A stretch of 64,000 nucleotides of DNA from an uncultured Clostridia bacterium (GTDB lineage Bacteria; Bacillota; Clostridia; Oscillospirales; Acutalibacteraceae). Location: contig CALZID010000004.1 in the NCBI GenBank assembly GCA_945787805.1, positions 7,712-71,711 of the forward strand, written 5' to 3'. The translations under genes and the position numbers were made by a program. Shown piece after piece: positions 1,453-62,157 of the stretch. Below the pieces are notes generated by a model. It was not told the origin of the DNA. It saw only the letters and a list, made by a program, of their open reading frames with translations, and did not search any database. Numbering within the stretch: the first letter of the stretch is position 1; each line of letters opens with the position of its first letter.

Positions 1453-1612
1453 ACGAATTCACCTCCTATTATTTTTTATAAATGCGCTTGCAAGGAGAAA
1501 AAATATGCCTCTTCTGCAAAGACAGAAAAGGCATAGAAACATTTTAATTAAATGCTAATATCCTCGGTAGGCAGTTGAAACTTTATGCAAAATGCACCTA
1601 CTGTCTTTGGCA
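1453..1612 (-). promoter_or_regulatory. ribosomal protein L10 leader with attenuator terminator
   Basis: The minus-strand leader contains GACAGUAGG...CCUACCGAGG pairing typical of Firmicutes L10 leaders. A hairpin AUGCCUUUUCUG-N6-CAGAAGAGGCAU plus U-run (1495-1534) lies just before the rplJ RBS. Confidence 0.6.
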
Positions 1613-1621
1613 AGCTTTATT

Positions 1622-1650
1622 ATACTAACACAACCAACACGGTTTGTCAA
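1622..1650 (-). promoter_or_regulatory. sigma-A type promoter for rplJL
   Basis: TTGACA-17 nt-TAGTAT(AAT) on the minus strand, directly after the rplA stop. Confidence 0.6.
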
Positions 1651-4063: not shown

Positions 4064-4331
4064 TTTCGGCACCTCCGTTATTATGTTATCTGAAAAATCA
4101 GCAGATAACTGTGTATAGCCTGCCTCGTAAAAATGGGCACAAAAATAAAACCCTCTTTCTCGAGGTACGAGTATTTTATCACGCTTGTCAATATATGTCA
4201 AGTAGTTTGAAAAAGTTTTTTCAAAATCAAAATCTTAAATAAAATTTATACAAAAATTGTTTAATTATAATGTATATTGAATATATCTTTTTATACATTA
4301 TGACAAAAGTAGTTTTTTTGTGGCTTTTTTA

Positions 4332-4360
4332 TTGACGGATTTTCTGTTTTATGTTAAAAT
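4332..4360 (+). promoter_or_regulatory. sigma-A type promoter
   Basis: TTGACG-17 nt-TAAAAT, upstream of the 32-codon ORF. Confidence 0.5.
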
Positions 4361-4383
4361 TCAATAAGCAAATTGAAGGAGTG

Positions 4384-4482
4384 ATGGCAATGTTGAATAT
4401 CTGCAAGCAAAAGCAAAAAGACATTGGTATTGCTATTCAATTTTTTAGCGATAATGTTTCTATTTTTCATTTTTCTTTTTAA
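4384..4482 (+). CDS. 32-aa small ORF (possible leader peptide or small protein)
   Basis: GAAGGAG RBS, then ATG at 4384. Translation is MAMLNICKQKQKDIGIAIQFFSDNVSIFHFSF. The TAA stop (4480-4482) overlaps the first bases of a terminator stem. Confidence 0.3.
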   Translation: MAMLNICKQKQKDIGIAIQFFSDNVSIFHFSF

Positions 4483-4510
4483 CGACGGTTTTTCCGTCGT
4501 TATTTTTTTG
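4481..4510 (+). terminator. intrinsic terminator
   Basis: AACGACGG-N5-CCGTCGTT followed by ATTTTTTTG. Confidence 0.8.
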
Positions 4511-4531
4511 TGTTCTTCTTCATTTTATATG

Positions 4532-4560
4532 TTGAATAACACCGTATATTATAGTATAAT
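4532..4560 (+). promoter_or_regulatory. sigma-A type promoter for the first carAB pair
   Basis: TTGAAT-17 nt-TATAAT, 37 nt upstream of the carA-like start. Confidence 0.55.
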
Positions 4561-4596
4561 ATTCAGTTGAAATAAACAGAAAGGCTGGTGTGAATT

Positions 4597-5640
4597 TTGA
4601 AAGCGTATTTAATGCTTGAAAACGGCGCTGTTTTTGAAGGACAGGCTGCCGGAAAATTCAAAGAAACTGTATGTGAATTAGTATTTAACACATCAATGAC
4701 CGGATATGTTGAAATGCTGTCGGACCCGTCAAATGCAGGTTTGGGTGTGGTTATGACTTATCCGCTTATCGGCAACTACGGTGTTTGTCTTGAAGATATG
4801 GAAAGTAACAGGCTCTACCCCGCCGCACTTTTGGTGCACGAGCTTTGTGATACTCCGTCGAATTTCAGAAGTGAGATGACGCTTGAAGAATTGCTTATCA
4901 AATATGAAATTCCTTGCATAAAAGGTCTTGATGACCGCGCAATAGTTATGAATCTTCGTGAAAACGGCGCTATGAAAGCAATTATCACAGATGACATTTC
5001 AAATAAAGACGCACTTTTTGATAAAATCAATGCATTTGGGATTAAGAATGATTACAAAGGTGCTGACAGAAAAATTTCCGATGACGGAACAAGCCTTGCA
5101 TTCATTGATTTTGGCGCAAGAAAGAGTTTTGTAGACGCTTTTGCAAAGCGTGGATTTGCGGTTTCTGCTTTCTCTGAGCTCAATGCCGATGAAATCATCG
5201 CAAAAGGCTTTGAAGGCGTTGTGCTTTCCAACGGTGTTGAAGATTTTGATACACTTGCTTATACGATAGAAGAAATCAAAAAGCTTATGGACAAAAATGT
5301 ACCAATTTTTGCAATCGGTCTCGGTCACCAGCTCGTTGCTCTTGCAAATGGCGGCAAGGTTGAAAAAATGCTTCACGGTCACAGAGGCTGCAACTATCCC
5401 GTTAGATTTAACCATATTGATAAAACATATATCACTGCGCAAAACCACGGATATGCGGTGACAGAAGCTCCTGCAAACGCAGATGTGCTTTGCTCAAATG
5501 TAAACGACAATACAATTGAAGGTTTCAAATATAAGAACAAGCCCGTTATGACTGTTCAGTTTATTCCAGACACCGCAAAAGGTCCGAACACAGCCTTCTT
5601 GTTTGACGATTTTAAGAATATAATTAAGGAGGGCAAATAA
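4597..5640 (+). CDS. carA: carbamoyl-phosphate synthase small-subunit paralog lacking the glutaminase catalytic triad
   Basis: The CarA N-domain is conserved (VFNTSMTGYVEMLSDPSNAG...TYPLIGNYGV). In the GATase domain, GICLGHQ is AIGLGHQ (Cys->Gly, codon 5317-5319). VQYHPE is VQFIPD (His->Ile at 5563-5565, Glu->Asp at 5569-5571). GPGNP is GVEDF. The TTG start gives the usual MKAxLxLENG N-terminus. Confidence 0.9.
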   Translation: MKAYLMLENGAVFEGQAAGKFKETVCELVFNTSMTGYVEMLSDPSNAGLGVVMTYPLIGNYGVCLEDMESNRLYPAALLVHELCDTPSNFRSEMTLEELLIKYEIPCIKGLDDRAIVMNLRENGAMKAIITDDISNKDALFDKINAFGIKNDYKGADRKISDDGTSLAFIDFGARKSFVDAFAKRGFAVSAFSELNADEIIAKGFEGVVLSNGVEDFDTLAYTIEEIKKLMDKNVPIFAIGLGHQLVALANGGKVEKMLHGHRGCNYPVRFNHIDKTYITAQNHGYAVTEAPANADVLCSNVNDNTIEGFKYKNKPVMTVQFIPDTAKGPNTAFLFDDFKNIIKEGK

Positions 5641-5641
5641 T

Positions 5642-8600
5642 ATGTTGGATAAAAGCATAAAAAAAGTAATGGTTATCGGCTCGGGACCTATTATTATCGG
5701 TCAAGCTGCCGAATTTGACTATGCGGGCACTCAGGCTTGCCGCTCTCTTAAAGAAGAAGGCGTTGAGGTAGTTCTTGTAAACTCTAACCCCGCTACAATT
5801 ATGACCGACGGCGACATTGCGGACAAGGTTTATGTTGAGCCTCTCACAATTCCTACACTCACAAAAATCATTGAAAAAGAAAAGCCCGACTCACTTCTCC
5901 CCTCCCTTGGCGGTCAAACAGGTCTTAACCTTGCAATGGAGCTTAACGAGTTAGGTATTCTTAAAGAAAACAATGTTCGTCTTATAGGTATCAATGCCGA
6001 CTCAATCAAAAAAGCCGAAGACAGACAAGAATTCAAGGACACAATGGAAGCTATCGGCGAGCCTTGTATTGAATCCCTTGTTGTTGAAACGGTTGAAGAT
6101 GCACTTGAATTCTCTGCCAAAATCGGATACCCCGTAATTGTTCGTCCCGCATATACGCTGGGCGGTACAGGTGGCGGTATTGCCTATGACGAAGAACAGC
6201 TTCACGAAATTGCATCAAACGGTATCCGTCTTTCCCGTGTTAATCAGGTTCTTATTGAGAAATGTATTTCAGGTTGGAAAGAAATCGAATTTGAAACAAT
6301 GCGTGACTCAAAGGGCAACTGCATTACAATCTGTTCAATGGAGAATGTTGACCCCGTCGGTATTCATACGGGTGACTCAATTGTTGTAGCCCCTGCGCAG
6401 ACACTTATGGATAAAGAATATTCAATGCTTCGCAATGCCGCACTCAACATTATTGACGCTCTTGACATTCAGGGCGGTTGTAATGTTCAGTTTGCACTTC
6501 ACCCCACATCATTTGAATATGCGGTTATCGAGGTTAATCCCCGTGTTTCCCGTTCATCAGCGTTGGCATCTAAGGCAACGGGCTTCCCGATTGCCCGAGT
6601 TGCGTCAAAAATTGCTCTCGGCTTAGGTCTTGACGAAATTCCTAATGCTGTTACCGGAAAAACTTATGCATCATTTGAGCCGACTATCGACTATATCGTA
6701 TGCAAATTCCCGAAATGGCCCTTTGACAAGTTTGTTACTGCCAAAAAAACTCTCGGTACACAGATGAAAGCCACCGGTGAAGTTATGTCAATTGCACGCA
6801 CATTCGAGGCGGCGCTTCATAAGTCACTTCACTCACTTGAAGAAAACAAAGAGTCTTTGCTTCTCGACTCACTTATGGATTTGAGCAAAGAAGAAGTGCG
6901 CAGTCAGCTCTATAATGTTGACAATATGCGAGTTTACACAATTGCGGTTGCGATTTATAAAGGTATCGCTCTTGAAGAAATCTACGATATCACGAAGATT
7001 GATATGTGGTTCTTAAATAAAATCAAAAACATTGTTGATATGGAAAAGGTTCTAAAGTCAGGCAGATGCGATAAAGAAACTCTTTTCGCCGCCAAGAAAA
7101 TGGGCTTTACCGACTCTGTTATCGCTAAAAATGTGGGTACAACAACGAGCGCTGTTAAGCATTTGAGAAAGCTTTGGAATATTATTCCCGCATTCTCTAT
7201 TGTTGATACTTGCGCCGCTGAATTCCCCGCACAGACGCCGTATTACTATTCGGATTACGGTATTGCTAACGAAGTTAATCCGAGAACCGACAAGAAAAAG
7301 ATTATGGTACTCGGTTCGGGTCCTATCAGAATCGGTCAGGGCGTTGAATTTGACTATTGTTCAGTTCACTCGGTTTGGGCGCTTAAAAAGGCCGGCTGTG
7401 AAGCAATTATCGTAAACAACAACCCGGAAACGGTTTCAACCGACTTTGATGTGTCCGACAAGCTCTATTTTGAACCGTTGACACCCGAATATGTAACAAG
7501 CATTGTTGAGCTTGAAAATCCCGACGGCGCCATTGTTCAGTTTGGCGGACAGACTGCAATCAAGCTTACAAAAACTCTTAACGATTTAGGCGTTAAAATT
7601 CTCGGTACAGACGCCGACCATGTTGACGCGGCTGAAGACAGAGAGCGTTTTGACGAAATTCTTGAATTCTGTGATATAGCTCGTCCCAAGGGACAGACAG
7701 TGTTCACAGCACAGGAAGCAATTGCGGCGGCTCACTCGCTGGGCTACCCCGTACTTGTTCGTCCGAGCTATGTTCTCGGCGGCCAGGGTATGCAGATTGC
7801 GGCAAGCGACGAAGATATTATCGAATTTATGGATATTATCACCAGAACAATCCCCGACCTTTCAGAGCACCCTGTTCTTGTTGACAAATACCTTATGGGA
7901 CAGGAGGTTGAGGTTGACGCTATCTGCGACGGCAAAGATATTCTCATCCCCGGTATTATGGAGCATATTGACCGTGCGGGTATTCACTCGGGCGACTCAA
8001 TCTCGGTTTATCCTGCCGTTACACTTTCTGAAAAGGTACAGAAAACCATTGTTGATTATACAAAGCGTCTTGCTTCTGCATTGCATGTTATCGGTATGAT
8101 GAACATTCAGTTTATCGTACTTCGTGAAACAGTTTATATTATTGAGGTTAATCCCCGTTCTTCAAGAACTGTTCCTTATATTTCAAAGGTTACGGGTATT
8201 CCCGCAATCAGTCTTGCAACAAGAGCCATGCTGGGCGAGAGAATTGCCGATATGGGATACGGCACAGGTCTTTTCAAGAACAGCGGCTATTATGCAATTA
8301 AGCTTCCCGTGTTCTCATTTGAAAAGATTATCGGCGCTGACACTTCATTAGGCCCCGAAATGAAATCAACGGGTGAAGTTCTCGGTATTTCAAAAGACTA
8401 CAATGAAGCATTGCTTAAAGCCTTTGAAGGCGGCGGTGTTTCAATGCCTAAAAACGCAAAAATTGTTGTTACTGTCCGTGATAAGGACAAAGCGGAAATC
8501 GGTGAAATGCTCAAAGAGTTCAAGGACTCAGAATTTGAATTCTATGCTACACCGGGTACTTGCAAAGCTATTCGTGAAGCCGGAATTCAGTGCAAAGAGG

Positions 8601-8854
8601 TTAATCCTTTGACTGCTCCGTCGCCTAATATTATGGATATGCTGCAAAACGGTGAAGTTTCACTCATCATCAACACCCCGACTCACGGCAGACTCAGTGA
8701 CCGTGACGGATTCAAGCTTCGTCGTCTTGCGGTTGAATCGGGTACATCTTGCCTTACATCGCTTGATGCGGCGCTCAGTGTTATGAGAAGCACATTCATT
8801 GTGCCCGACGGAAAAATGAGCCTTACCGACATTGCCACCATTAAAATAAAATAG
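5642..8854 (+). CDS. carB: carbamoyl-phosphate synthase large subunit
   Basis: 1070 aa with two ATP-grasp halves (GSGPIIIGQAAEFDYAGTQA and GSGPIRIGQGVEFDYC), an oligomerisation domain and a C-terminal MGS-like domain. It starts 1 nt after the carA-like stop. Confidence 0.96.
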   Translation: MLDKSIKKVMVIGSGPIIIGQAAEFDYAGTQACRSLKEEGVEVVLVNSNPATIMTDGDIADKVYVEPLTIPTLTKIIEKEKPDSLLPSLGGQTGLNLAMELNELGILKENNVRLIGINADSIKKAEDRQEFKDTMEAIGEPCIESLVVETVEDALEFSAKIGYPVIVRPAYTLGGTGGGIAYDEEQLHEIASNGIRLSRVNQVLIEKCISGWKEIEFETMRDSKGNCITICSMENVDPVGIHTGDSIVVAPAQTLMDKEYSMLRNAALNIIDALDIQGGCNVQFALHPTSFEYAVIEVNPRVSRSSALASKATGFPIARVASKIALGLGLDEIPNAVTGKTYASFEPTIDYIVCKFPKWPFDKFVTAKKTLGTQMKATGEVMSIARTFEAALHKSLHSLEENKESLLLDSLMDLSKEEVRSQLYNVDNMRVYTIAVAIYKGIALEEIYDITKIDMWFLNKIKNIVDMEKVLKSGRCDKETLFAAKKMGFTDSVIAKNVGTTTSAVKHLRKLWNIIPAFSIVDTCAAEFPAQTPYYYSDYGIANEVNPRTDKKKIMVLGSGPIRIGQGVEFDYCSVHSVWALKKAGCEAIIVNNNPETVSTDFDVSDKLYFEPLTPEYVTSIVELENPDGAIVQFGGQTAIKLTKTLNDLGVKILGTDADHVDAAEDRERFDEILEFCDIARPKGQTVFTAQEAIAAAHSLGYPVLVRPSYVLGGQGMQIAASDEDIIEFMDIITRTIPDLSEHPVLVDKYLMGQEVEVDAICDGKDILIPGIMEHIDRAGIHSGDSISVYPAVTLSEKVQKTIVDYTKRLASALHVIGMMNIQFIVLRETVYIIEVNPRSSRTVPYISKVTGIPAISLATRAMLGERIADMGYGTGLFKNSGYYAIKLPVFSFEKIIGADTSLGPEMKSTGEVLGISKDYNEALLKAFEGGGVSMPKNAKIVVTVRDKDKAEIGEMLKEFKDSEFEFYATPGTCKAIREAGIQCKEVNPLTAPSPNIMDMLQNGEVSLIINTPTHGRLSDRDGFKLRRLAVESGTSCLTSLDAALSVMRSTFIVPDGKMSLTDIATIKIK

Positions 8855-8879: not shown

Positions 8880-10034
8880 ATGGCATATAATATTATTGAC
8901 TATTCTGTTTTAAATGCAAACAGAGGATTTGATGCGCTGCCTTTTTCAAAAGTTGACGGACTTATTCTTGCCCAGTTGATATACATTAGTTTTGACGGTG
9001 TTGTACCTTGTATTGCCGACGGCAGTGAAGGTGTGCGCTTGTCAGATCTTGCGGAAACGGAAAATTATGAAAAACTGTTTCCGCTTAAACGAACTGCCGA
9101 AAGAAATAAAAGACTGTTAAACGCAACTGCCTACAGTAAACGGTTCGGCAGTATGAAAGTCAATTACTATGAAAATATTTTTGACTATGAAAACGATACG
9201 CAGTTTGCCGCTGTAACATTTATATTGCCAAACGGCGATGTGTGTATTTCTTTTCGGGGTACAGACGCTACCATTACAGGCTGGAAAGAAAACTTTAATA
9301 TGCTTTATATGTCGCCTGTTGCGGCTCAGAAGCTTTCTGTAAAATATGTTGAAAAAGTGGCTGAAAAGACTGCGGGAGATATTATCCTTTTAGGTCATTC
9401 AAAGGGCGGCAATCTTGCGATTTATGCGGCAACCATGTGCAATAAAGCCACAAAAAAGAGAATTAAAGAAATTCAAAGCTTTGACAGCCCGGGATTTACT
9501 CAGGAATTTATAAATTCGGAAAAATATATTAAAACAGAACCAAAAATCAGTAAATATATTCCCGAAGAGTCAATGGTTGGCACACTGCTCAATAATAACA
9601 ATAATTATCATATTATTAAAAGTGACGGCACAGGCATATTTCAGCATGACCCGTTTATGTGGAAAGTCAAAAATAACGATTTTATACCGGGCGAAAAAAT
9701 CAAAAACGCCGCACAGTTTTTTGACGAAACCTTTAACGGCTGGGTTTACAGTACCGACCAACATCAAAGGGAATTGTTTATCCAAACAATGTTTGATATT
9801 ATTGAAGCTACAAATAAGCAGAATGCAAGGTGCTTTCCGGAGTGGAGCGAAAATCTCAAAGGCAACACAACGCTTGTGATTGATACAATCAAAGACCTTG
9901 ACCCCGAAACACGAAATATGATGCTTAAATGCTTCGGAAATGTTTTCTCAACCATTAACAGAAATGTTAAATCAACGCCTAAAAAGCTGTGGGCAGATAC
10001 AAAAAGAAAAATCAAAGTAAAAAACATACTTTGA
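8880..10034 (+). CDS. alpha/beta-hydrolase, DUF2974 (Mbeg1-like) family protein
   Basis: 384 aa with the nucleophile elbow LLGHSKGGNLAIYAA and overall DUF2974-like organisation. Function unknown. Confidence 0.7.
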   Translation: MAYNIIDYSVLNANRGFDALPFSKVDGLILAQLIYISFDGVVPCIADGSEGVRLSDLAETENYEKLFPLKRTAERNKRLLNATAYSKRFGSMKVNYYENIFDYENDTQFAAVTFILPNGDVCISFRGTDATITGWKENFNMLYMSPVAAQKLSVKYVEKVAEKTAGDIILLGHSKGGNLAIYAATMCNKATKKRIKEIQSFDSPGFTQEFINSEKYIKTEPKISKYIPEESMVGTLLNNNNNYHIIKSDGTGIFQHDPFMWKVKNNDFIPGEKIKNAAQFFDETFNGWVYSTDQHQRELFIQTMFDIIEATNKQNARCFPEWSENLKGNTTLVIDTIKDLDPETRNMMLKCFGNVFSTINRNVKSTPKKLWADTKRKIKVKNIL

Positions 10035-16320: not shown

Positions 16321-16340
16321 ATATACATATTTATAAAGCT

Positions 16341-16590
16341 ATGAGAAAGAACGACGGATAATATGAATTTTCAGAGAGATTTCGGTCGGTGCAAGAAATC
16401 AGTTCAATATCCCGAGACCACTTTCGAGCGTCGGCGAAAACATATTGTATATGATTAAGCCGTACCGTATGACTGCGTTAAAGTCTTTTGAGTGGCAGAA
16501 TTTTATTCTGCAATGCGGGTGGAACCGTGGAATGTTGTTTTTTAGCATTTCATCCTGTAATTATAGGATGAAGTGCTTTTTCTTTTATAA
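16341..16590 (+). promoter_or_regulatory. T-box leader (Thr-specific) with terminator
   Basis: Stem I AGAGA and GGUGCAAG elements are present. The specifier is ACC followed by A (16417-16420). The T-box sequence is GCGGGUGGAACCGUGG (16515-16530). The terminator is AGCAUUUCAUCCU-N8-AGGAUGAAGUGCU plus a U-run (16544-16586). It lies upstream of thrS. Confidence 0.85.
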
Positions 16591-16613: not shown

Positions 16614-18563
16614 ATGGTAAAAGTAACACTTAAAGGCGATGTTATCAAAGAATATGATAACGGTATTACTGTTGCGGAGATTGCTAAATCTATAGGTATG
16701 GGTTTATATAAATCTGCTTGCGGCGGTAAAATCAACGGAGTTTATTGTGATTTGAGAACCCCCATCAGTGAAGACTGTAATCTTGAAATCGTAACATTTG
16801 ATGAAACTGACGGTAAAAAGACATTTTGGCACACTGCTTCTCACATTATGGCTCAGGCAGTTAAAAGACTTTATCCCGACACAAAGCTTGCTATCGGTCC
16901 GTCGGTGGATAACGGATTTTATTATGATTTTGATTCAGATATTTCATTTACCCCTGATGTTCTTGAAAAAATCGAAGCGGAAATGAAAAAAATCGTCAAA
17001 GAAGATTTACCCCTTGAAAAATTTGAGCTCTCCCCTGCCGAAGCACTTTCTATAATGGAAGAAAAAGGCGAAATTTATAAGGTTGAGCTTATAAAAGAGC
17101 ACGCTGACAAGGGTGAGCCCATTTCATTCTACAAGCAGGGTGAATTCACAGAGCTTTGCGCAGGCCCGCATCTTATGTCAACAGGCGCGGTTAAAGCATT
17201 CAAGCTCACCTCCTGCACGGGCGCTTACTGGCGCGGCAATGAAAAGAACAAAATGCTTCAAAGAATTTATGCAACTGCATTTCCAAAGCAGTCTGCACTT
17301 GACGAGCATTTAGCACAGCTTGAAGAAGCTAAGAAGCGTGACCACAACAAGTTAGGAAGAGAGTTGGAGCTTTTCACAACAAGCGAGTTAATCGGTCAGG
17401 GACTTCCCATTATGCTTCCGAAGGGCGCAAGAATTATTCAGCTTCTTCAAAGATTTGTTGAAGATGAAGAGCAAAGACGGGGTTGGCTTTTAACAAAGAC
17501 TCCGTTTATGGCAAAGAGCGACCTTTATAAAGTTTCGGGACACTGGGACCACTATCTTGACGGTATGTTTGTGCTCGGTGACCCTGCCAAAGAAGATGAG
17601 GGCGAAGAGGTATTCGCACTTCGTCCTATGACTTGTCCGTTCCAATATCAGGCATATTTAAACCGTCCCCGTTCATACAGGGATTTACCTTTGAGATATA
17701 ACGAAACATCCACTCTTTTCCGTAACGAATCATCGGGTGAAATGCACGGTCTTATCCGTGTTCGTCAGTTCACAATTTCGGAAGGTCACCTTATGTGCAC
17801 CCCCGAACAGCTTGAAGAAGAATTCAAGGGCTGTCTTGAGCTTGCAAACTATATGCTTCAAACTCTCGGTCTCTATGAAGATGTTTCTTTCCGTTTCTCG
17901 CAATGGGACCCCAACAACAAAGAGAAGTATATCGGTACTCCCGAGCAGTGGGACGAAGCACAGGGTATTATGGGCAAAATTCTTGACCATCTCGGAATTA
18001 AATATACTGTCGGTATTGATGAAGCTGCATTCTACGGTCCTAAGCTTGACATTCAGATTAAAAATGTATTCGGCAAGGAAGACACACTTATTACAATTCA
18101 GGTTGACCAGTTGCTTGCAGAAAAATTTGGTATGGAATACACCGACAAAGACGGTACAAAGAAGCGCCCGTATATCATTCACAGAACTTCAATCGGTTGT
18201 TACGAGCGTACTCTTGCACTTCTTATTGAAAAATATGCAGGCGCATTCCCTCTTTGGCTCGCTCCCGAACAAGTCAGAATTCTTCCTATCGCCGACCGTC
18301 ACCATGACAAAGCATACGAAATCAAGAAAGAGCTTGAGAAAATGGGTATGCGTGTAACTGTTGACGACAGAAGCGAAAAAACAGGCTATAAAATTCGTGA
18401 ATCAAGACTTCAAAAGCTCCCCTATTGGATTATTGTGGGTGACAAAGAAGTTGAAGACGGCACGGTATCAGTAAGCAAACGGGGTCAAGGTGACATCGGT
18501 TCAATGACATTTGATGCTTTTGCAGATATGCTCAAAGAAGAAATCGACAACAAAGTCAGATAA
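16614..18563 (+). CDS. thrS: threonine--tRNA ligase
   Basis: 649 aa with an N-terminal TGS domain, the editing-domain motif HTASHIMAQA, class II core motifs and an anticodon-binding domain. Confidence 0.97.
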   Translation: MVKVTLKGDVIKEYDNGITVAEIAKSIGMGLYKSACGGKINGVYCDLRTPISEDCNLEIVTFDETDGKKTFWHTASHIMAQAVKRLYPDTKLAIGPSVDNGFYYDFDSDISFTPDVLEKIEAEMKKIVKEDLPLEKFELSPAEALSIMEEKGEIYKVELIKEHADKGEPISFYKQGEFTELCAGPHLMSTGAVKAFKLTSCTGAYWRGNEKNKMLQRIYATAFPKQSALDEHLAQLEEAKKRDHNKLGRELELFTTSELIGQGLPIMLPKGARIIQLLQRFVEDEEQRRGWLLTKTPFMAKSDLYKVSGHWDHYLDGMFVLGDPAKEDEGEEVFALRPMTCPFQYQAYLNRPRSYRDLPLRYNETSTLFRNESSGEMHGLIRVRQFTISEGHLMCTPEQLEEEFKGCLELANYMLQTLGLYEDVSFRFSQWDPNNKEKYIGTPEQWDEAQGIMGKILDHLGIKYTVGIDEAAFYGPKLDIQIKNVFGKEDTLITIQVDQLLAEKFGMEYTDKDGTKKRPYIIHRTSIGCYERTLALLIEKYAGAFPLWLAPEQVRILPIADRHHDKAYEIKKELEKMGMRVTVDDRSEKTGYKIRESRLQKLPYWIIVGDKEVEDGTVSVSKRGQGDIGSMTFDAFADMLKEEIDNKVR

Positions 18564-23253: not shown

Positions 23254-23335
23254 ATCAATCACCCTGATAAATAATATACTATAATAATACAATATTTGAC
23301 AATAAAAGTCAATGAAGCGAAAGATACAAATATTG

Positions 23336-24724: not shown

Positions 24725-24899
24725 ACATTTCACTCCTTCATAATATAAGTTTGTGAAACGCTTCGAGATTTATAAATTGCGGAGCACATCCGCATTCATA
24801 CTCGGAGGTTTCGCTGTTGTACTTCGATATGTGTCCACAATTATTCACTCCTTTAAAACAAAATAAAAAAACCGCAAATTTGCTCAAACGCAAAAATGC

Positions 24900-25066: not shown

Positions 25067-25077
25067 TTTACTTAGAT

Positions 25078-31907: not shown

Positions 31908-31908
31908 T

Positions 31909-57550: not shown

Positions 57551-57895
57551 GTATTCACGAAGAATGCGGCGTATTCGGTGCCATTGCACAGTCAAATATT
57601 GATATCGGAAACCTTGTGTACTACGGACTTTATGCGCTTCAACACAGGGGGCAGGAAAGCTGCGGAATTGTTGTCAATGATGACGGTGTTTTTACTTCAC
57701 ATAAGGATTTAGGTCTTTTAAGTGAAGTGTTATCTGCGCTGCCGAGCAGCAGAATCTTTATGCAAAATGATTGGCAATGAATTTTATTGCAGTGCTTGTT
57801 TTGACGGAGGTTATCCTACCCCTATACCCATAGATACCAGAAAAGACAGATTTGAACAAAAATTATCCCAAAAAAGAGGTAATAAAGATGATTAG
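57547..57895 (+). pseudogene. purF: amidophosphoribosyltransferase (purF) remnant with a large internal deletion and frameshift
   Basis: In frame 1, [14 protein letters not shown]...YYGLYALQHRGQESCGIVVNDDGVFTSHKDLGLLSEV is the PurF N-terminus (about 62 aa) and diverges into a stop at 57778. In frame 2 from about 57743, AAESL..IGNEFYCSACFDGGYPTPIP...* is the PurF C-terminal CxACFxGxYPT end, with stop at 57893-57895. About 350-400 central codons are missing. Confidence 0.8.
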
Positions 57896-58982
57896 AGAAT
57901 TTGACCGCAAACTCATATTGGAAGACGGTACCGAAATTATGGGTTATTCTTTCGGCGCCAGATGCGATAAAATATGCGAAATTGTTTTTAATACTTCTAT
58001 GGTGGGTTATCAAGAAATTCTTTCGGACCCCTCATATACTTATCAAGCGGTTGTTATGACATATCCGCTTATCGGCAACTACGGTATTGCGGACGACGAT
58101 TTTGAAACGGTTACACCTACAATCGGTGCTTTTATTGTCGGTGAAAACAATGATGAGCCTTCAAATTTCAGAAGCACCGCCACATTATCGGATATAATGA
58201 AGAAATATGATATTCCCGGTATTTTCGGTGTGGATACCAGGAAACTCACTCGTCACATTCGCAATAACGGTATGTGCAAGGTTCTTATATGCGATGCCGA
58301 TACCACCGTCGAAAAAGGACTTGAAATTCTAAAGAGTACCGAAATCCCAAAGGATGCAGTATCAAAGGTAACTCCAAAAGGAATTTTTAAAAAGGAAGCT
58401 TTAAATCCGTCATTCCGTGTGGTTGCCATTGACTGCGGAATGAAAGAAAACATTGTGCGAAGTCTTAACAAAAGGGGCTGTTCCGTAACAGTTGTCCCCT
58501 ATAACACAAGTGCCGAAGCTATTGAAAGCTTAAACCCCGACGGTGTTTTTCTTTCCAACGGTCCGGGGAACCCAAATGATGTTCCCGAGCTTATTAACAC
58601 AGTAAAAGAATTGCACGGAAAATACCCTATGTTCGGAATTTGTCTCGGTCATCAAATTATCAGCCTTTCTTATGGGGCAAAGTGCTATAAACTGAAATTC
58701 GGTCACAGAGGCGGTAATCACCCCGTTAAAAATCTTGCAACGGGCAAGATTGAAATTACTTCACAAAACCATTCATACGCTGTTGACAATGAGAGCTTAA
58801 AAAACACTTCTCTCACCGTTACACATATCAATTTACTTGACAATACCGTTGAAGGTGTTGAGAATAAAACCGATAAGGTATTTTCGGTGCAATATCACCC
58901 CGAAAGTGCTCCCGGTCCCGAAGACAGCGCATATCTTTTTGATAAATTTATTAAGATGATGGAGGAAGAGAAAAATGCCTAA
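57888..58982 (+). CDS. carA: carbamoyl-phosphate synthase small subunit (canonical glutaminase)
   Basis: ATG at 57888 follows AAGAGG. The N-terminus is MIREFDRKLILEDGT. The triad motifs are intact: FGICLGHQ and VQYHPESAPGP. Confidence 0.95.
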   Translation: MIREFDRKLILEDGTEIMGYSFGARCDKICEIVFNTSMVGYQEILSDPSYTYQAVVMTYPLIGNYGIADDDFETVTPTIGAFIVGENNDEPSNFRSTATLSDIMKKYDIPGIFGVDTRKLTRHIRNNGMCKVLICDADTTVEKGLEILKSTEIPKDAVSKVTPKGIFKKEALNPSFRVVAIDCGMKENIVRSLNKRGCSVTVVPYNTSAEAIESLNPDGVFLSNGPGNPNDVPELINTVKELHGKYPMFGICLGHQIISLSYGAKCYKLKFGHRGGNHPVKNLATGKIEITSQNHSYAVDNESLKNTSLTVTHINLLDNTVEGVENKTDKVFSVQYHPESAPGPEDSAYLFDKFIKMMEEEKNA

Positions 58983-61900
58983 GAGAACAGATATAAAAAA
59001 AGTTTTAGTCATTGGCTCGGGTCCCATCGTCATAGGTCAGGCAGCCGAGTTTGACTATGCGGGTACACAGGCTTGTCTGGCGCTTAAAGAAGAAGGCTAT
59101 GAAGTTGTGTTGTGCAACTCCAACCCCGCAACAATTATGACTGACACTTCTGTTGCGGATAAGGTGTATATGGAGCCGCTGACTTTGGAATATATATCTA
59201 AAATTGTCCGTTTTGAGCGCCCAGACGCAATACTTCCCGGTATCGGCGGACAAACAGGACTCAACCTTGCAATACAGCTTGAAAAGAAAGGTGTTCTCAG
59301 TGAATGCCGTGTAGAGCTTCTGGGCACACCGTCCGCAAGTATTGAAAGAGCCGAAGACAGAGAACTTTTTAAAGAGTTATGTGAAGAATTAGGAGAACCT
59401 GTATTGCCGTCAGACATTGCAACCTCCATTGAAGACGGATTGAGAGTTGCAAATGAAATCGGTTTTCCCGTGGTACTGCGTCCCGCCTTTACCTTGGGCG
59501 GTACAGGCGGCGGATTTGCCGATAACGAAGACGAATTCCTGCCGCTTATGAAAAATGCTCTGGCGCTCTCCCCCGTAAATCAAGTGCTTATTGAAAAGAG
59601 CATTAAGGGCTACAAGGAAATTGAATATGAAGTAATCAGGGACGCAAATGATACTGCTATTACAGTGTGTAATATGGAAAATCTCGACCCTGTGGGTATT
59701 CACACGGGCGACTCCGTTGTTGTGTGCCCTTCCCAAACACTTACCAATAAAGAATATCAAATGCTGAGAAACAGTGCTCTCAAAATCATTCGTGCATTAG
59801 GCATTGAGGGCGGCTGCAATGTTCAGTTTGCATTGGACCCAAATTCTTTTCAGTATTATCTTATCGAAGTTAATCCGAGAGTTTCTCGCTCGTCCGCATT
59901 GGCTTCAAAAGCCAGCGGTTATCCGATAGCCAGAGTTTCGGCTAAAATCGGTGTGGGTATGACACTTGATGAAATAAGAATTGCCAACACACCCGCCTCT
60001 TTTGAGCCAACCCTTGACTATGTAGTGTGCAAAATGCCCCGTTTCCCCTTTGATAAATTTACCGATGCCAACAATTCACTTTCAACACAAATGAAAGCAA
60101 CCGGTGAAGTTATGAGCATCGGCAGAAGCTTTGAAGAAAGTCTTTTAAAGGGTATTCGTTCTCTTGAAATCGGGCTTTATCACTTATATAATAAAAAATT
60201 CGATGATGAAACCACAGAGTCTTTGCTCTCTTATATTGAGATAGGTACTGATGACCGAATTTATGCAATTGCCGAGCTGTTAAGACGAAGCATATCGGCA
60301 GATGTTATTCATAAACAGACAAAAATAGACCTTTTCTTTATTCGCAAGCTGAAAAATATTGTGGATATGGAAAATGAACTTGAAAATTCCCCGCAAAATG
60401 AAAAAGTTTTGAGAGCCGCAAAATCTATGGGCTTTTCGGATAAACAGATAGGAAAAATATGGAATAAAGACGAAAATGATATAAGAATTTTGAGAAAAGA
60501 ACTCAGTATCTCCCCTATTTATAAGATGATTGATACTTGTGCGTCAGAATTTGAAAGTTATATTCCATATTTTTATTCTACATATGCTGATGAAAACGAG
60601 TCCATTATTTCAAACAAAAAAAAGGTTATTGTGTTAGGCTCGGGACCTATCCGTATCGGTCAGGGCGTTGAATTTGACTATTCAACTGTTCATGCAGTTA
60701 AGACCATTAAAGCGGCGGGCTTTGAAGCAATCATTATCAACAATAACCCTGAAACCGTATCAACTGATTACACCTGTTCCGACAAGCTCTATTTCGAGCC
60801 ATTATGTGTGGAAGATGTTATGAACATTATTGATATGGAACAACCCTACGGTGTTATTGCTACCTTGGGTGGTCAAACTGCCATAAATCTTGCTGAACCG
60901 CTGGCGGAATTAGGTGTAAATATTATCAGTACGGACAAAGATGCCATTGACAAGGCGGAAAACCGCGATTTATTTGAAAAACTGCTTTGCAGTCTTTCAA
61001 TTCCACAGCCGAAAGGCAGAGCCGTGACAAGCATTGAAGCAGGATTGAAAGCGGCAGAAGAAATCGGTTATCCCGTTCTTGTGCGCCCCAGCTTTGTGCT
61101 CGGCGGCAGAGCCATGCAAATAGTCGCAAAGCCCGAAGCCTTAAAGCACTACCTTAAAACCGCAGTTGAAATCGACGAAGATAAGCCCGTATTAGTTGAT
61201 AAATACTTGAAAGGCAAGGAAGTCGAGGTTGATGCGGTCTGCGACGGTAAAGATGTATTTATCCCCGGTATTATGGAGCTTGTTGAACGCACCGGCGTTC
61301 ATTCAGGCGACTCAATAAGTGTTTATCCCTCTTTCAGCATATCGCAAAAGGTCAAAGACACAATTATTGATTACACTAAAAAGCTTGGTGTGGGAATAGG
61401 TATTGTGGGTCTTTATAACATCCAGTTCATTGTAGATGAGAACGATGATGTTTATATAATTGAAGTAAACCCCCGTTCTTCAAGAACAGTGCCGTTCCTT
61501 TCAAAAGCAACAGGTTACAGTCTTGCCGATATTGCAACTCTTGTAATTCTGGGTAAATCTCTCAAGGAACAAGGCATATTTGAAGTTTATCCCAAAGAAA
61601 AAGAACGCTTTTATGTAAAAGTTCCGGCATTTTCATTCTCAAAGCTTCACGGTATGGACTCTTATCTGTCCCCCGAAATGAAATCCACGGGTGAAGCAAT
61701 CGGTTATGATAAGGCGCTTTCGAGAGCCATGTATAAGGCGATGATTGCAAGCGGTATGAAAGTGCAGAATTACGGTACACTGCTTGTCACTCTTGCAGAC
61801 GAAGATAAGGAAGAAGCACTGCCTTTGATTAGAAAATTCTATAATTTGGGCTTTAATATTGAAGCGACTGTGGGTACCGCAGTATTCCTGAAAGAGCATG

Positions 61901-62157
61901 GAATTCGCACCCGTATTCGCCGCAAGCTGTCAGAAGGCAGTGAAGAGATACTTGACTCAATCAGAGCGGGATATGTCAGCTATGTTATTTGTACAAGAGC
62001 GATTTTGTCGGGTGTGCATTATGAAGACGGTGTGGCAATCCGCCGCTGTGCAACCCAGAATAATATCACTATGCTGACAAGCCTTGACACAGTAAAAATG
62101 CTTCTCGAAGTTTTAGAAGAAACCACCATAGGGATATCCACAATAAACGAGAAGTGA
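58975..62157 (+). CDS. carB: carbamoyl-phosphate synthase large subunit
   Basis: 1060 aa with both ATP-grasp halves and the MGS-like domain. It overlaps the carA stop by 8 nt. Confidence 0.97.
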   Translation: MPKRTDIKKVLVIGSGPIVIGQAAEFDYAGTQACLALKEEGYEVVLCNSNPATIMTDTSVADKVYMEPLTLEYISKIVRFERPDAILPGIGGQTGLNLAIQLEKKGVLSECRVELLGTPSASIERAEDRELFKELCEELGEPVLPSDIATSIEDGLRVANEIGFPVVLRPAFTLGGTGGGFADNEDEFLPLMKNALALSPVNQVLIEKSIKGYKEIEYEVIRDANDTAITVCNMENLDPVGIHTGDSVVVCPSQTLTNKEYQMLRNSALKIIRALGIEGGCNVQFALDPNSFQYYLIEVNPRVSRSSALASKASGYPIARVSAKIGVGMTLDEIRIANTPASFEPTLDYVVCKMPRFPFDKFTDANNSLSTQMKATGEVMSIGRSFEESLLKGIRSLEIGLYHLYNKKFDDETTESLLSYIEIGTDDRIYAIAELLRRSISADVIHKQTKIDLFFIRKLKNIVDMENELENSPQNEKVLRAAKSMGFSDKQIGKIWNKDENDIRILRKELSISPIYKMIDTCASEFESYIPYFYSTYADENESIISNKKKVIVLGSGPIRIGQGVEFDYSTVHAVKTIKAAGFEAIIINNNPETVSTDYTCSDKLYFEPLCVEDVMNIIDMEQPYGVIATLGGQTAINLAEPLAELGVNIISTDKDAIDKAENRDLFEKLLCSLSIPQPKGRAVTSIEAGLKAAEEIGYPVLVRPSFVLGGRAMQIVAKPEALKHYLKTAVEIDEDKPVLVDKYLKGKEVEVDAVCDGKDVFIPGIMELVERTGVHSGDSISVYPSFSISQKVKDTIIDYTKKLGVGIGIVGLYNIQFIVDENDDVYIIEVNPRSSRTVPFLSKATGYSLADIATLVILGKSLKEQGIFEVYPKEKERFYVKVPAFSFSKLHGMDSYLSPEMKSTGEAIGYDKALSRAMYKAMIASGMKVQNYGTLLVTLADEDKEEALPLIRKFYNLGFNIEATVGTAVFLKEHGIRTRIRRKLSEGSEEILDSIRAGYVSYVICTRAILSGVHYEDGVAIRRCATQNNITMLTSLDTVKMLLEVLEETTIGISTINEK

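What the first reader, a model, noticed from the sequence alone, without database searches (positions are those of the whole stretch)
4597..8854. Paralogous carAB pair whose small subunit has lost the whole Cys-His-Glu glutaminase triad
Two carAB pairs are present. The copy at 57888-62157 has canonical motifs (FGICLGHQ, FGHRGGNHPV, VQYHPESAPGP). The copy at 4597-5640 shows these changes:
- It reads FAIGLGHQ, so the nucleophile Cys is Gly (codon 5317-5319).
- It reads VQFIPDTAKGP, so His is Ile and Glu is Asp (5563-5571).
- LSNGPGNP has become LSNGVEDF.

The CarB-interacting N-domain stays well conserved, and the partner CarB (1070 aa) looks intact. The ORF is uninterrupted and has its own TTGAAT-17-TATAAT promoter, so it does not look like a decaying pseudogene. 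The analogy is mitochondrial CPS I, where loss of the glutaminase Cys accompanies use of free ammonia. The pair could therefore be an ammonia-dependent CPS, or CarA could be a purely structural or allosteric subunit.
Basis: seen in the sequence. Interest (0 to 1): 0.65.

Follow-up and report, generated by a model that had tools for sequence, protein, structure and literature searches.

The report
Bacterial carbamoyl-phosphate synthetase with dead glutaminase subunit
A pig-gut Clostridia bacterium (Candidatus Fimenecus) has two carbamoyl-phosphate synthetases: a normal glutamine-using one inside its nitrogen-assimilation gene cluster, and a second whose small subunit has lost its glutamine-splitting site yet is conserved, so this second enzyme most likely uses free ammonia directly, which is not yet biochemically shown for any bacterium.

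Summary
ORF 4597-5640 is a full-length CarA. Aligned to E. coli CarA it has Cys269->Gly, His353->Ile, Glu355->Asp and Gly243->Glu. It is translationally coupled to an intact CarB (5642-8854).

It is not a decaying gene:
- 19 orthologous loci are uninterrupted.
- dN/dS is 0.13 for CarA' and 0.056 for CarB'.
- 97 protein clusters at 61-96% identity all carry Gly269, Glu243 and (96/97) Asp355.
- The listed ammonia-tunnel residues are invariant or, at position 293, small (Ala/Cys).

Orthologues at the same chromosomal position show a graded series, from an intact triad, to Cys->Gly only, to full loss. Cys-less CarAs also occur in other anaerobic Firmicutes, including inside pyrimidine operons of cultured Desulfonispora thiosulfatigenes and a Sporomusaceae MAG.

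The canonical carAB lies at the end of a cluster holding GS, GOGAT, GDH, Amt-PII and glutamine amidotransferase genes. This mirrors Bacteroides thetaiotaomicron, where canonical CarAB sits in the low-ammonium locus and an orphan CarB2 is proposed to be ammonium-dependent.

Best reading: an ammonia-dependent CPS that keeps a pseudo-glutaminase subunit, like mitochondrial CPS I. No biochemical or expression evidence was obtained. I class it as a new variant of a known, still only proposed, kind.

The parts
4597..5640 (+). carA': CPS small subunit with a dead glutaminase site (Gly at Cys269, Ile at His353, Asp at Glu355, Glu at Gly243). TTG start.
   Evidence: The TTG start and the N-terminal residues LKAY[LV]ML are conserved in 19 loci and align to E. 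coli residues 3 onward. dN/dS is 0.13. AlphaFold pLDDT is 92.9, with TM 0.89-0.90 to E. coli CarA.
5642..8854 (+). carB': intact CPS large subunit (1070 aa). Its ATG lies 1 nt after the carA' stop and is preceded by AAGGAGG inside carA' (translational coupling).
   Evidence: All ATP-site residues and ammonia-tunnel or gate residues (E217, C232, A251, R265, A314 and others) are conserved. dN/dS is 0.056 and identity is 88-97% across Fimenecus-type loci.
4532..4560 (+). Promoter-like site TTGAAT-17-TATAAT in front of carA'.
   Evidence: Scan. The -35 TTGAA(T/C) and TATAGTATAAT are conserved in 23 of 24 aligned loci; L013 has TAA at the -35 and a 17-base gap. No Rfam element reaches a meaningful score in 4200-4640.
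4480..4509 (+). Intrinsic-terminator-like hairpin plus T-run, directly after the small ORF and about 90 nt before carA'.
   Evidence: The CGACGG...CCG(T/C)CG stem and T-run are conserved in all loci.
4384..4482 (+). Conserved small ORF (32 aa here) ending F-x-F-stop. Its stop codon is the first three bases of the terminator stem, and it has its own promoter-like site at 4332-4360. It may be a leader or attenuator, or an independent small-peptide gene. Its link to carA'B' is unproven.
   Evidence: An ORF ending F-x-F-stop was extracted in the window and all 23 related loci. Peptides are 29-37 aa where an ATG follows a Shine-Dalgarno site; the script's other calls are 19-50 aa. A 36-aa gene is called at the same place in L106.
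8880..10034 (+). Mbeg1-like (PF11187) gene, 25 nt after carB' with no terminator between. It is a conserved downstream neighbour and probably in the same transcript.
   Evidence: It follows carB' in every related locus that extends beyond carB' (18 Fimenecus-type loci) and in L106. It also follows the canonical-triad orthologue in L110, so it is not specific to the triad loss.
57888..58982 (+). Canonical carA (364 aa) with an intact Cys-His-Glu triad.
   Evidence: TIGR01368, 472 bits. Orthologues are 364 aa.
58975..62157 (+). Canonical carB (1060 aa). It is the last gene of a co-directional run gdh-GSIII-amt/PII-asnB-purC-purA-purB-guaA-pyrG-(purF remnant)-carA-carB.
   Evidence: Relatives have purB-guaA-glmS-pyrG-purF-carA-carB-dapF-dapL-lysA.

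Best explanation
carA'B' (4597-8854) most likely encodes a carbamoyl-phosphate synthetase that cannot hydrolyse glutamine and takes free ammonia as its nitrogen substrate.

**Proposed mechanism**
- CarB' carries out the normal chemistry: bicarbonate phosphorylation, attack by NH3, then carbamate phosphorylation.
- CarA' is a pseudo-glutaminase. It is kept because its N-terminal domain and its GATase-fold domain still form the heterodimer with CarB'.
- CarA' probably still forms the upper part of the ammonia tunnel, now entered by external ammonia through the emptied, remodelled pocket. A CPS I-like side path is an alternative entry route.

**Proposed physiological role**
The organism keeps two CPSs with a division of labour by nitrogen status.
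- The canonical glutamine-dependent CarAB is embedded in the nitrogen-assimilation and amidotransferase cluster. It would serve when ammonium is scarce and nitrogen flows through GS to glutamine.
- CarA'B' sits beside the ribosomal-protein genes and has a consensus-like promoter. It would serve in the ammonium-rich gut and save the ATP otherwise spent making glutamine.

**Shown here**
- Loss of all three triad residues.
- Purifying selection on both genes.
- Intact CarB' catalytic residues.
- Descent from a canonical carAB at the same locus.
- Recurrence of the loss in other lineages, including inside pyrimidine operons.
- The genomic context of the canonical copy.

**Inferred, not shown**
- Ammonia use.
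- The route by which ammonia enters.
- Regulation by ammonium.
For: 1. **Catalysis with glutamine is excluded by sequence.** Gly replaces the thioester-forming Cys269, and Ile and Asp replace His353 and Glu355. Glu replaces Gly243. Cys269 and His353 are essential for glutamine hydrolysis in E. coli (PMC6245113).
2. **Not decay.**
   - 19 of 19 loci have intact ORFs.
   - dN/dS is 0.13 overall, 0.105 in the N-domain and 0.147 in the GATase-like domain. CarB' is 0.056.
   - Gly269 and Glu243 occur in 97 of 97 clusters and Asp355 in 96 of 97.
   - The Gly codon has turned over synonymously.
3. **Relaxed but retained.** The GATase-like domain diverges 1.77 times faster than the N-domain. In orthologues of the canonical paralogue at similar divergence the ratio is 0.85.
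4. **Tunnel kept.**
   - CarA' S35, M36, N311 and G359 are invariant in the clade.
   - Position 293 is Ala or Cys. In human CPS1 a Gln at this position blocks the tunnel (PMC4655335).
   - CarB' keeps the gate residues C232, A251 and A314, plus E217 and R265.
5. **CarB' is a complete synthetase**. E. coli CarB alone makes carbamoyl phosphate from ammonia (PMC6245113, PMC8121099).
6. **Coupling.** There is a 1-nt gap and a strong RBS between carA' and carB'. The pair is conserved in all loci. The 8 substitutions fixed only in CarB' relative to same-locus canonical partners all lie in residues 86-352, the domain that touches CarA and receives ammonia.
7. **Independent Cys-less CarA-CarB pairs sit inside pyrB-pyrC-carA-carB(-pyrK-pyrD-pyrF-pyrE) operons.** These are in Desulfonispora thiosulfatigenes DSM 11270 and a Sporomusaceae MAG. 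Such pairs are therefore used as biosynthetic CPSs.
8. **Context matches the B. thetaiotaomicron precedent.** There, canonical carAB (with dapLF) lies in the low-ammonium-induced locus, and the glutaminase-less CarB2 matters only when ammonium is present (PMC8121099). Here canonical carAB ends a GS/GOGAT/GDH/GSIII/Amt-PII/asnB/guaA/pyrG cluster. In relatives it is followed by dapF-dapL-lysA.
Against: - No enzymology, transcript or protein evidence was obtained.
- E. coli CPS uses ammonia only at very high, probably unphysiological concentrations (PMC6245113). Efficient use here would need adaptations that I could not identify. The CarB'-specific changes are conservative (Y218F, N233S, S253A, L352I and similar) and rest on only two same-locus canonical comparators.
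- Several glutamine-contacting residues (S47, Q273, N311, G313, Y/F314) remain conserved in this clade, so some ligand binding in the pocket is not excluded.
- Regulation by ammonium is inferred only from gene neighbourhood. No regulator site was identified.
- Co-occurrence of the two CPSs is shown only for this window. Attempts to show it in other MAGs failed.
Confidence: 0.65

Rival explanations
1. CarA' is a ligand-sensing pseudoenzyme. The pocket no longer cleaves glutamine but still binds it, or a related metabolite, and transmits an allosteric signal to CarB'. CarB' would still use free ammonia.
For: - S47, Q273, N311, H312, G313 and Y/F314, which contact glutamine in E. coli CarA, are 92-100% conserved in the Fimenecus-type clade. 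They are much less conserved in other Cys-less lineages, for example S47 in 19 of 84 and Q273 in 46 of 84.
- New residues E243, D355 and K/R358 are fixed rather than drifting.
Against: - Glu at position 243 puts a carboxylate where, from my recollection of the E. coli C269S-glutamine structure, the backbone amide binds the substrate's alpha-carboxylate.
- The 242-245 loop is variable: V/A/P at 242 and F/H/E at 245.
- Q273 is Leu in 8 of 97 clusters.
- N311 and S35/M36 also line the tunnel, so their conservation has another explanation.
Confidence: 0.12
2. CarB' obtains ammonia from a different glutaminase in vivo. For example, the canonical CarA or another amidotransferase subunit docks on CarB', and CarA' acts as a competing or regulatory placeholder.
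For: - A canonical CarA is encoded in the same genome.
- L015 combines a CarA' of one subclade with a CarB' of another. This hints that the interface tolerates partner exchange within this CarA'/CarB' clade; whether it extends to the 36%-identical canonical CarA is not shown.
Against: - carA' and carB' are translationally coupled and always adjacent.
- The CarB-contacting N-domain of CarA' is the most constrained part, with dN/dS 0.105 and 55% of columns at least 95% conserved.
- Canonical CarA is only about 36% identical to CarA' and has its own overlapping partner gene.
- In B. thetaiotaomicron, canonical carA was not co-fit with carB2 (PMC8121099).
Confidence: 0.06
3. The remodelled pocket (Glu243, His272, Asp355, Lys/Arg358) has gained a new hydrolytic activity on another amide or nitrogen donor. 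It would release ammonia into the old tunnel without a Cys nucleophile.
For: The replacements are specific and fixed: E243 in 97 of 97, D355 in 96 of 97 and K/R358 in 97 of 97 clusters. A one-residue deletion at position 361 and D362N are also fixed, and the tunnel is intact.
Against: - To my knowledge no class I amidotransferase fold works without the nucleophilic Cys.
- Position 353 is hydrophobic or small and variable (I/A/S/T).
- Other Cys-less lineages carry many different residues at these positions, which fits loss rather than a shared new chemistry.
Confidence: 0.05
4. The small-subunit gene is a functionless relic on its way to loss, and CarB' works alone like B. thetaiotaomicron CarB2.
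For: - The GATase-like domain evolves about twice as fast, relative to the N-domain, as in the canonical paralogue.
- Bacteroides manages with an orphan CarB2 (PMC8121099).
Against: - There are no frameshifts or stops in 19 loci, and 96 of 97 clusters are full-length.
- dN/dS is 0.15 in the dead domain, at synonymous divergence near 1.
- The start region and RBS are perfectly conserved.
- Newly fixed residues are present.
- The model is confidently folded.
Confidence: 0.04

Closest known systems
[quoted passage not shown] 2021, Cell Rep, PMC8121099)
   Same: - A gut anaerobe with two CPS systems.
- The canonical glutamine-dependent carAB lies in the nitrogen-limitation locus, together with dapLF. 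In relatives of this window, dapF-dapL-lysA follow carAB.
- The second CPS has no working glutaminase and was proposed, from fitness data, to be ammonium-dependent.
   Different: - Bacteroides has an orphan large subunit with no small subunit at all. Here a full-length small subunit is kept, translationally coupled, under purifying selection and with a remodelled pocket.
- The phylum differs (Bacillota, not Bacteroidota).
- The Bacteroides case has genetic evidence. This one has none.
Mitochondrial CPS I (EC 6.3.4.16), e.g. human CPS1 (PDB 5DOU; PMC4655335)
   Same: - Ammonia-specific CPS that retains an inactive glutaminase-like domain whose catalytic Cys is replaced (Ser294 in human).
- The CarA' model superposes on the CPS1 N-terminal moiety with TM 0.85-0.87.
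   Different: - CPS I is one fused polypeptide and needs N-acetylglutamate.
- It keeps His and Glu of the triad.
- Its ancestral tunnel is blocked by Gln318 (the E. coli Gly293 position).
- Here there are two subunits, all three triad residues are gone, position 293 is Ala or Cys, and the gate residues are unchanged.
- N-acetylglutamate dependence was not tested.
E. coli CarAB and its engineered small-subunit variants (Cys269 substitutions; tunnel-blocking G359F/Y; perforated-tunnel mutant)
   Same: - Same two-domain small subunit and four-domain large subunit. Foldseek aligns 373-380 columns at TM 0.88-0.90 and sequence identity is 32-34%.
- E. coli variants with the glutamine route blocked or perforated remain normally active with ammonia (summarised in PMC4655335; titles listed in PMC6245113).
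   Different: - Those are laboratory mutants of a glutamine-dependent enzyme whose ammonia reaction needs unphysiological concentrations (PMC6245113).
- Here the loss is natural, ancient, fixed and accompanied by further fixed changes.
Two-CPS Firmicutes such as Bacillus subtilis (arginine-specific CarAB and pyrimidine-specific PyrAA/PyrAB)
   Same: Two carAB-type pairs in one Bacillota genome.
   Different: - In Bacillus both small subunits are active glutaminases and the split is by pathway (Paulus and Switzer, cited in PMC8121099).
- Here one small subunit is catalytically dead. Neither pair is in an arg or pyr operon in this window.
- The UMP/IMP phosphate ligand K993 is kept only in the canonical paralogue.
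Archaeal ammonia-dependent CP-forming enzymes (Methanobrevibacter smithii minimal CPS; Pyrococcus carbamate-kinase-like CPS)
   Same: Prokaryotic carbamoyl-phosphate synthesis from free ammonia. M. smithii is also a gut organism (PMC6022934, PMC8121099).
   Different: These have entirely different architectures: a 41-kDa half-synthetase dimer, or an amino-acid-kinase fold. Neither has a small subunit.

Membership tests
CPS small subunit, CarA (PF00988 + PF00117; NF009475 / TIGR01368) | N-terminal CPSase small-chain domain | tested here: met
   PF00988 matches 1-126/126 at E 3.6e-42. It is the most constrained part of the protein.
CPS small subunit, CarA (PF00988 + PF00117; NF009475 / TIGR01368) | C-terminal class I glutamine-amidotransferase fold | tested here: met
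   PF00117 matches 2-188/190 at 115 bits, against 196 bits for the canonical copy. The AlphaFold model has pLDDT 92.9 and TM 0.89-0.90 to 1c30_B and 1jdb.
CPS small subunit, CarA (PF00988 + PF00117; NF009475 / TIGR01368) | Encoded next to, and pairing with, a CarB large subunit | tested here: met
   Adjacency and a 1-nt spacing are seen in the window and in all related loci. Physical pairing was not testable.
Glutamine-hydrolysing CPS (EC 6.3.5.5, CPS II type) | Cys-His-Glu catalytic triad in the small subunit (E. coli C269, H353, E355) | tested here: not met
   The residues are Gly, Ile and Asp. The same holds in 97 related clusters. The protein just passes the TIGR01368 'glutamine-hydrolyzing' cutoff (310.1 against 307.35 bits), which explains the database naming.
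Glutamine-hydrolysing CPS (EC 6.3.5.5, CPS II type) | Intact glutamine-binding loop G241-P-G243 | tested here: not met
   The motif is G-V-E in the window. Glu243 occurs in 97 of 97 clusters and position 242 is V/A/P.
Glutamine-hydrolysing CPS (EC 6.3.5.5, CPS II type) | Glutamine-dependent carbamoyl-phosphate synthesis | not testable with these tools
   Needs an enzyme assay.
Ammonia-dependent CPS I (EC 6.3.4.16) | Inactive glutaminase-like domain retained | tested here: met
Ammonia-dependent CPS I (EC 6.3.4.16) | Single fused polypeptide of about 1500 residues | tested here: not met
   There are two ORFs separated by a stop codon.
Ammonia-dependent CPS I (EC 6.3.4.16) | Obligatory activation by N-acetylglutamate; ammonia as the only N donor | not testable with these tools
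   The MGS-like allosteric domain is present. Ligand specificity cannot be read from sequence here.
Bacteroides-type dual CPS system (PMC8121099) | Canonical carAB located in the nitrogen-limitation / ammonium-assimilation locus | tested here: met
   The window has the ANTAR regulator, GS and GOGAT-like genes on the minus strand. On the plus strand it has gdh, GSIII, Amt-PII, asnB, purC, purA, purB, guaA, pyrG, carA and carB.
Bacteroides-type dual CPS system (PMC8121099) | Second CPS is an orphan CarB without any small subunit | tested here: not met
   A conserved CarA' is present and coupled.
Bacteroides-type dual CPS system (PMC8121099) | Second CPS needed only when ammonium is plentiful; canonical one when it is scarce | not testable with these tools
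   Needs genetics or expression data. No RNA runs were found.

The most novel reading that the evidence does not exclude
Anaerobic Firmicutes have repeatedly turned one carAB pair into a heterodimeric, CPS I-like, ammonia-specific enzyme. On rough trees this happened of the order of ten or more times. In the Fimenecus lineage the dead glutaminase pocket was not just lost but rebuilt:
- invariant Glu243, Asp355 and Lys/Arg358;
- deletion of residue 361;
- an intact tunnel.

The rebuilt pocket would act as a dedicated ammonium-capture entrance that gives the enzyme a physiological affinity for ammonia. If so, the rule that all bacterial CPSs are glutamine-dependent is wrong for a large part of the gut and anaerobic microbiota. 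Current annotation ('glutamine-hydrolyzing') would also be systematically wrong for these proteins.
Probability: 0.2. Interest if true: 0.8.

Novelty: new variant of a known kind. Interest (0 to 1): 0.6.

Why it matters
Reviews state that glutamine is the physiological nitrogen donor "for all bacterial CPSases" (PMC6245113). The one published challenge, B. thetaiotaomicron CarB2, is still only a genetic inference (PMC8121099).

- **A second, independent solution.** This locus comes from a different phylum and has a different architecture: a retained pseudo-glutaminase subunit, as in mitochondrial CPS I.
- **A visible evolutionary path.** The same chromosomal position holds an intact triad, then Cys->Gly only, then full loss with remodelling.
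- **A wider pattern.** Cys-less CarAs are frequent among the nearest relatives (85 of 150 cluster representatives). They also occur inside pyrimidine operons of a cultured organism, which makes the question directly testable.

Practical consequences:
- Automatic annotation names these proteins 'glutamine-hydrolyzing'.
- Metabolic models of gut Clostridia would charge one glutamine, and so one extra ATP through GS, per carbamoyl phosphate wrongly.
- The pair could serve as a marker of adaptation to ammonium-rich habitats.

Tried and rejected
- **Transcription evidence.** The RNA run search returned a single run of unknown type. Contigs from it and two related runs cover genes and spacers alike, as DNA would, so they say nothing about expression.
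- **Co-occurrence of both CPSs in other genomes.** I looked up close homologues of canonical CarA and of CarA' in NCBI MAGs. None of the accessions matched between the two sets (against the MAG list). This stays untested beyond the window.
- **Riboswitch, PyrR or T-box control.** No Rfam family reaches threshold near either operon. The two weak sRNA hits at 4399-4509 (E 0.14-0.19) are far below gathering scores and were dismissed.
- **ArgR box in the carA' promoter.** By eye only, TGAAT and ATTCA half-sites exist in the window but are not conserved in the other 23 loci. Rejected.
- **Perforated tunnel wall as ammonia entry.** CarB' R265 and CarA' P360 are conserved. Only residue 361 is deleted, and that position is variable even among canonical CarAs. 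No support beyond speculation.
- **Displaced catalytic residues.** A search for clade-fixed new Cys, Ser or His found only Y48N, G243E, C269G, Q310H (not in the window itself), E355D and D362N. No alternative nucleophile.
- **Assigning the pairs to arginine or pyrimidine supply from allosteric-site residues.** Signals are mixed. K993 is kept only in the canonical paralogue and T1017 only in CarB'. Left open.
- **Recent horizontal transfer as an explanation of high CarB' identity.** Synonymous divergence is about 0.8-1.3 in all pairs, so the high protein identity reflects constraint. L015 is nevertheless a carA'/carB' mosaic.
- **Literature searches.** No description of a bacterial triad-less CarA was found in the held library. 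Subscription journals are not covered.

Full report
**1. What is in the sequence**

The window carries two carA-carB pairs.

The first pair:
- It is ORF 4597-5640 (TTG start, 347 aa) followed one nucleotide later by ORF 5642-8854 (1070 aa).
- An AAGGAGG ribosome-binding site lies inside the end of the first gene.
- Pfam matches the small protein end to end with CPSase_sm_chain and class I GATase. It matches the large one with all CarB domains.
- NCBIfam scores are 349 bits (NF009475) for the small protein and 1508 bits (NF003671) for the large one.

Aligned to the solved E. coli small subunit, without gaps at the sites concerned:
- the nucleophile Cys269 is Gly (GGT, 5317-5319);
- His353 is Ile (5563-5565);
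- Glu355 is Asp (5569-5571);
- Gly243 of the G-P-G substrate loop is Glu.

The second pair (57888-58982 and 58975-62157) has every canonical motif.

**2. Whose genome, and is the gene alive**

Related loci in the species-representative genome collection come from Candidatus Fimenecus and unnamed Clostridia or Eubacteriales MAGs. Near-identical DNA is found in pig-gut and anaerobic-digester metagenomes.

Synteny is fixed. rpmG-secE-nusG-rplK-rplA run leftwards. A small ORF, carA', carB', an Mbeg1-like gene and queT run rightwards.

Evidence that the gene is under selection:
- All 19 full-length orthologous pairs are uninterrupted and share the TTG start.
- Nei-Gojobori dN/dS is 0.13 for carA' (N-domain 0.105, dead GATase-like domain 0.147) and 0.056 for carB'. 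Synonymous divergence is around 1, so these are rough but clearly well below 1.
- Among 97 protein clusters at 61-96% identity, Gly269 and Glu243 are invariant and Asp355 is present in 96.
- The Gly codon itself varies synonymously.
- An AlphaFold model built on 40 homologues is confident (pLDDT 92.9). It superposes on E. coli CarA at TM 0.89-0.90 and on the N-terminal moiety of human CPS1 at 0.85-0.87.

As a matched control I compared orthologues of the canonical paralogue. In those, the GATase domain is slightly more conserved than the N-domain (divergence ratio 0.85). In CarA' it diverges 1.77 times faster. Constraint on the dead domain is therefore relaxed about two-fold but far from lost.

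**3. What changed and what did not**

Positions conserved in canonical CarAs and fixed to a different residue in this clade are Y48N, G243E, C269G, E355D and D362N. Most members, though not the window, also have Q310H. Position 358 is always Lys or Arg, and residue 361 is deleted. No new conserved Cys or Ser appears, so there is no displaced nucleophile.

Residues I know to line the ammonia tunnel are invariant: S35, M36, N311 and G359. Position 293 is Ala or Cys. In human CPS1 a Gln at that position blocks the ancestral tunnel (PMC4655335).

CarB' keeps all residues checked in both ATP sites. It also keeps the tunnel and gate residues E217, C232, A251, R265 and A314. The residue lists come from my knowledge of the E. 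coli literature. The numbering was checked against the PDB alignment.

Eight substitutions are fixed only in CarB' relative to CarBs that partner canonical CarAs at the same locus. All lie in residues 86-352, the domain that contacts CarA and receives ammonia. This is suggestive of co-adaptation, but it rests on only two same-locus comparators and the changes are conservative.

**4. Where it came from**

More distant homologues sit at the same chromosomal position and form a graded series.
- P0105 (locus L110): rpmG-secE-nusG..., a Na/Ca exchanger gene, carA, carB, Mbeg1-like. It has an intact FAICLGHQ and HPE triad.
- P0111 (L106): same synteny including a small ORF, with Cys->Gly only.
- P0101 (L107): Gly, Tyr, Asp.
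- The Fimenecus-type clade has lost all three residues and changed the G-P-G loop.

So carA' is the orthologue of a once-canonical carA. The nucleophile was probably lost first and the rest followed. The 'paralogous pair' in this genome is an old two-CPS state, not a recent duplication.

**5. How general it is**

An exhaustive profile-free search returned 150 representatives of 50%-identity clusters at 34-52% identity to CarA'.
- 85 lack the Cys. Most have Gly, with many different residues at the His and Glu positions.
- On rough neighbour-joining trees they are interspersed with canonical sequences. Parsimony needs 16-27 state changes. These trees have no support values, so I conclude only that losses were multiple.

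Named examples, all annotated 'glutamine-hydrolyzing':
- Desulfonispora thiosulfatigenes DSM 11270;
- Peptococcaceae MAGs;
- Gracilibacteraceae MAGs;
- Sporomusaceae MAGs.

In Desulfonispora the Cys->Gly carA sits in pyrB-pyrC-carA-carB-pyrK-pyrD-pyrF-pyrE. Two independent assemblies give the identical protein. The Sporomusaceae one sits in pyrB-pyrC-carA-carB. A Cys-less pair inside a pyrimidine operon argues that such pairs make carbamoyl phosphate.

**6. Context of the canonical copy**

From 38.1 to 62.2 kb the window holds a nitrogen block.
- Minus strand: an ANTAR response regulator, a GS and a three-gene GOGAT-like set.
- Plus strand: gdh, a type III GS, an Amt-PII fusion, asnB, purC, purA, purB, guaA, pyrG and a purF remnant, then canonical carA-carB.

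In close relatives the run is purB-guaA-glmS-pyrG-purF-carA-carB-dapF-dapL-lysA.

This matches what Liu et al. reported for B. thetaiotaomicron (PMC8121099):
- An orphan CarB2 is needed only when ammonium is present.
- The authors proposed CarB2 as the first eubacterial ammonium-dependent CPS. They noted that until then all eubacterial CPSs had been found glutamine-dependent.

**7. Interpretation**

CarA'B' is an ammonia-dependent CPS whose small subunit is a pseudo-glutaminase, retained for the heterodimer and probably for the tunnel. It is used alongside a glutamine-dependent CPS that belongs to the nitrogen-limitation gene set.

This works like CPS I and like the Bacteroides CarB2 system, but it is a member of neither:
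- It is not fused, and N-acetylglutamate dependence is unknown.
- It is not an orphan CarB.
- It fails the defining triad of the glutamine-hydrolysing family under which databases file it.

Not shown: ammonia use, affinity, entry route, regulation and expression. The E. coli enzyme's ammonia reaction needs unphysiological concentrations (PMC6245113), so an adaptation must exist that I could not pin down.

The rivals are scored in the Rival explanations section: a ligand-sensing pocket, another glutaminase acting in trans, a new hydrolytic chemistry, and a dying relic.

**8. Regulation and leads not resolved**

The promoter-like site and the RBS and start region are conserved across the 24 loci, apart from L013's -35 region.

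Upstream lies a conserved small ORF that always ends F-x-F-stop. It is 29-37 aa wherever an ATG follows a Shine-Dalgarno site. Its stop codon forms the foot of a conserved terminator hairpin, and it has its own promoter-like site. Its U-rich end next to a terminator recalls UTP-sensitive attenuation of E. coli pyrBI (my recollection). However, the carA' promoter lies downstream of the terminator, so the link is uncertain.

No Rfam element, ArgR box or PyrR site was found. No transcript data could be obtained.

**9. Verdict**

This is a real, selected feature. Its interpretation is well supported by comparative evidence but biochemically untested. The concept is partly anticipated by the Bacteroides work. 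The new elements are the retained, remodelled pseudo-glutaminase subunit, the visible stepwise path, and the breadth across anaerobic Firmicutes.

Noticed in passing
window 57547-57892: There is a purF remnant between pyrG and canonical carA. Residues 1-75 of PurF lie at 57547-57756 and residues 430-477, in another frame, at 57749-57892. About 1062 nt (354 codons) are missing. Contigs from 95-99% identical strains in four metagenomes continue into full-length purF on both sides of 57749/57755, and one contig carries about 1063 extra bases there. This is either a strain-specific deletion at a 7-nt overlap or an assembly collapse. No other purF was found in the window.
   Followed up: partly
window 4332-4509 (small ORF 4384-4482, terminator 4480-4502): A conserved small ORF ending F-x-F-stop is present in the window and 23 related loci. 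It is 29-37 aa where an ATG follows a Shine-Dalgarno site, and a 36-aa gene is called at the same place in L106. It has a strong RBS and its own promoter-like site. Its stop codon is the first bases of a conserved terminator hairpin about 90 nt before carA'. The peptides are Ser/Ile/Gly/Cys/Phe-rich and evolve fast except at the C-terminus. It could be a leader or attenuator, or an independent small peptide.
   Followed up: partly
window 38126-62157: A large nitrogen block is present. On the minus strand: an ANTAR response regulator, a GS (403 aa) and a split three-gene GOGAT-like set. On the plus strand: gdh, type III GS, an Amt-PII fusion protein (586 aa), asnB, purC, purA, purB, guaA, pyrG and carAB. 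In relatives the plus-strand run collects five glutamine amidotransferases (guaA, glmS, pyrG, purF, carA) followed by dapF-dapL-lysA (L112).
   Followed up: partly
L015 2505-6759 compared with L014 and L021: This is a mosaic operon. CarA' of L015 is 97% identical to the L014 type and 68-70% to the window type. Its CarB' is 99% identical to L021 and 91% to L014. The cause is either recombination near the carA'/carB' junction or a chimeric metagenome assembly.
   Followed up: partly
L126 4821-5755 compared with L127 4064-5125: In the NCBI assembly of Desulfonispora thiosulfatigenes DSM 11270, pyrB is called as two pieces (153 and 111 aa). In a Logan assembly of a public run it is whole (353 aa). 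This is probably an assembly or frameshift error in one of them.
   Followed up: no
window 16332-16560, 24907-25068 (-), 1493-1628 (-): Ordinary leaders are present: a T-box before thrS (16614-18563), an M-box before mgtE (23384-24733, minus strand) and the L10 leader before rplJ.
   Followed up: no
window 21943-23292 (-), 29113-34935 (-): A cohesin plus Big_2 domain protein is present, along with GH95 and GH2 glycosidases. These suggest a glycan-degrading lifestyle.
   Followed up: no
CarB alignment, E. coli position 993 (window carB' and L106, L110): The UMP/IMP phosphate ligand Lys993 is Pro or Ser in CarB' and in two of the three other CarBs compared at this chromosomal position (L106 and L110; L108 keeps Lys). 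It is Lys in all 24 orthologues of the canonical paralogue. Glu783 is Asp in the whole locus lineage, including L108. The two CPSs may differ in nucleotide feedback.
   Followed up: partly
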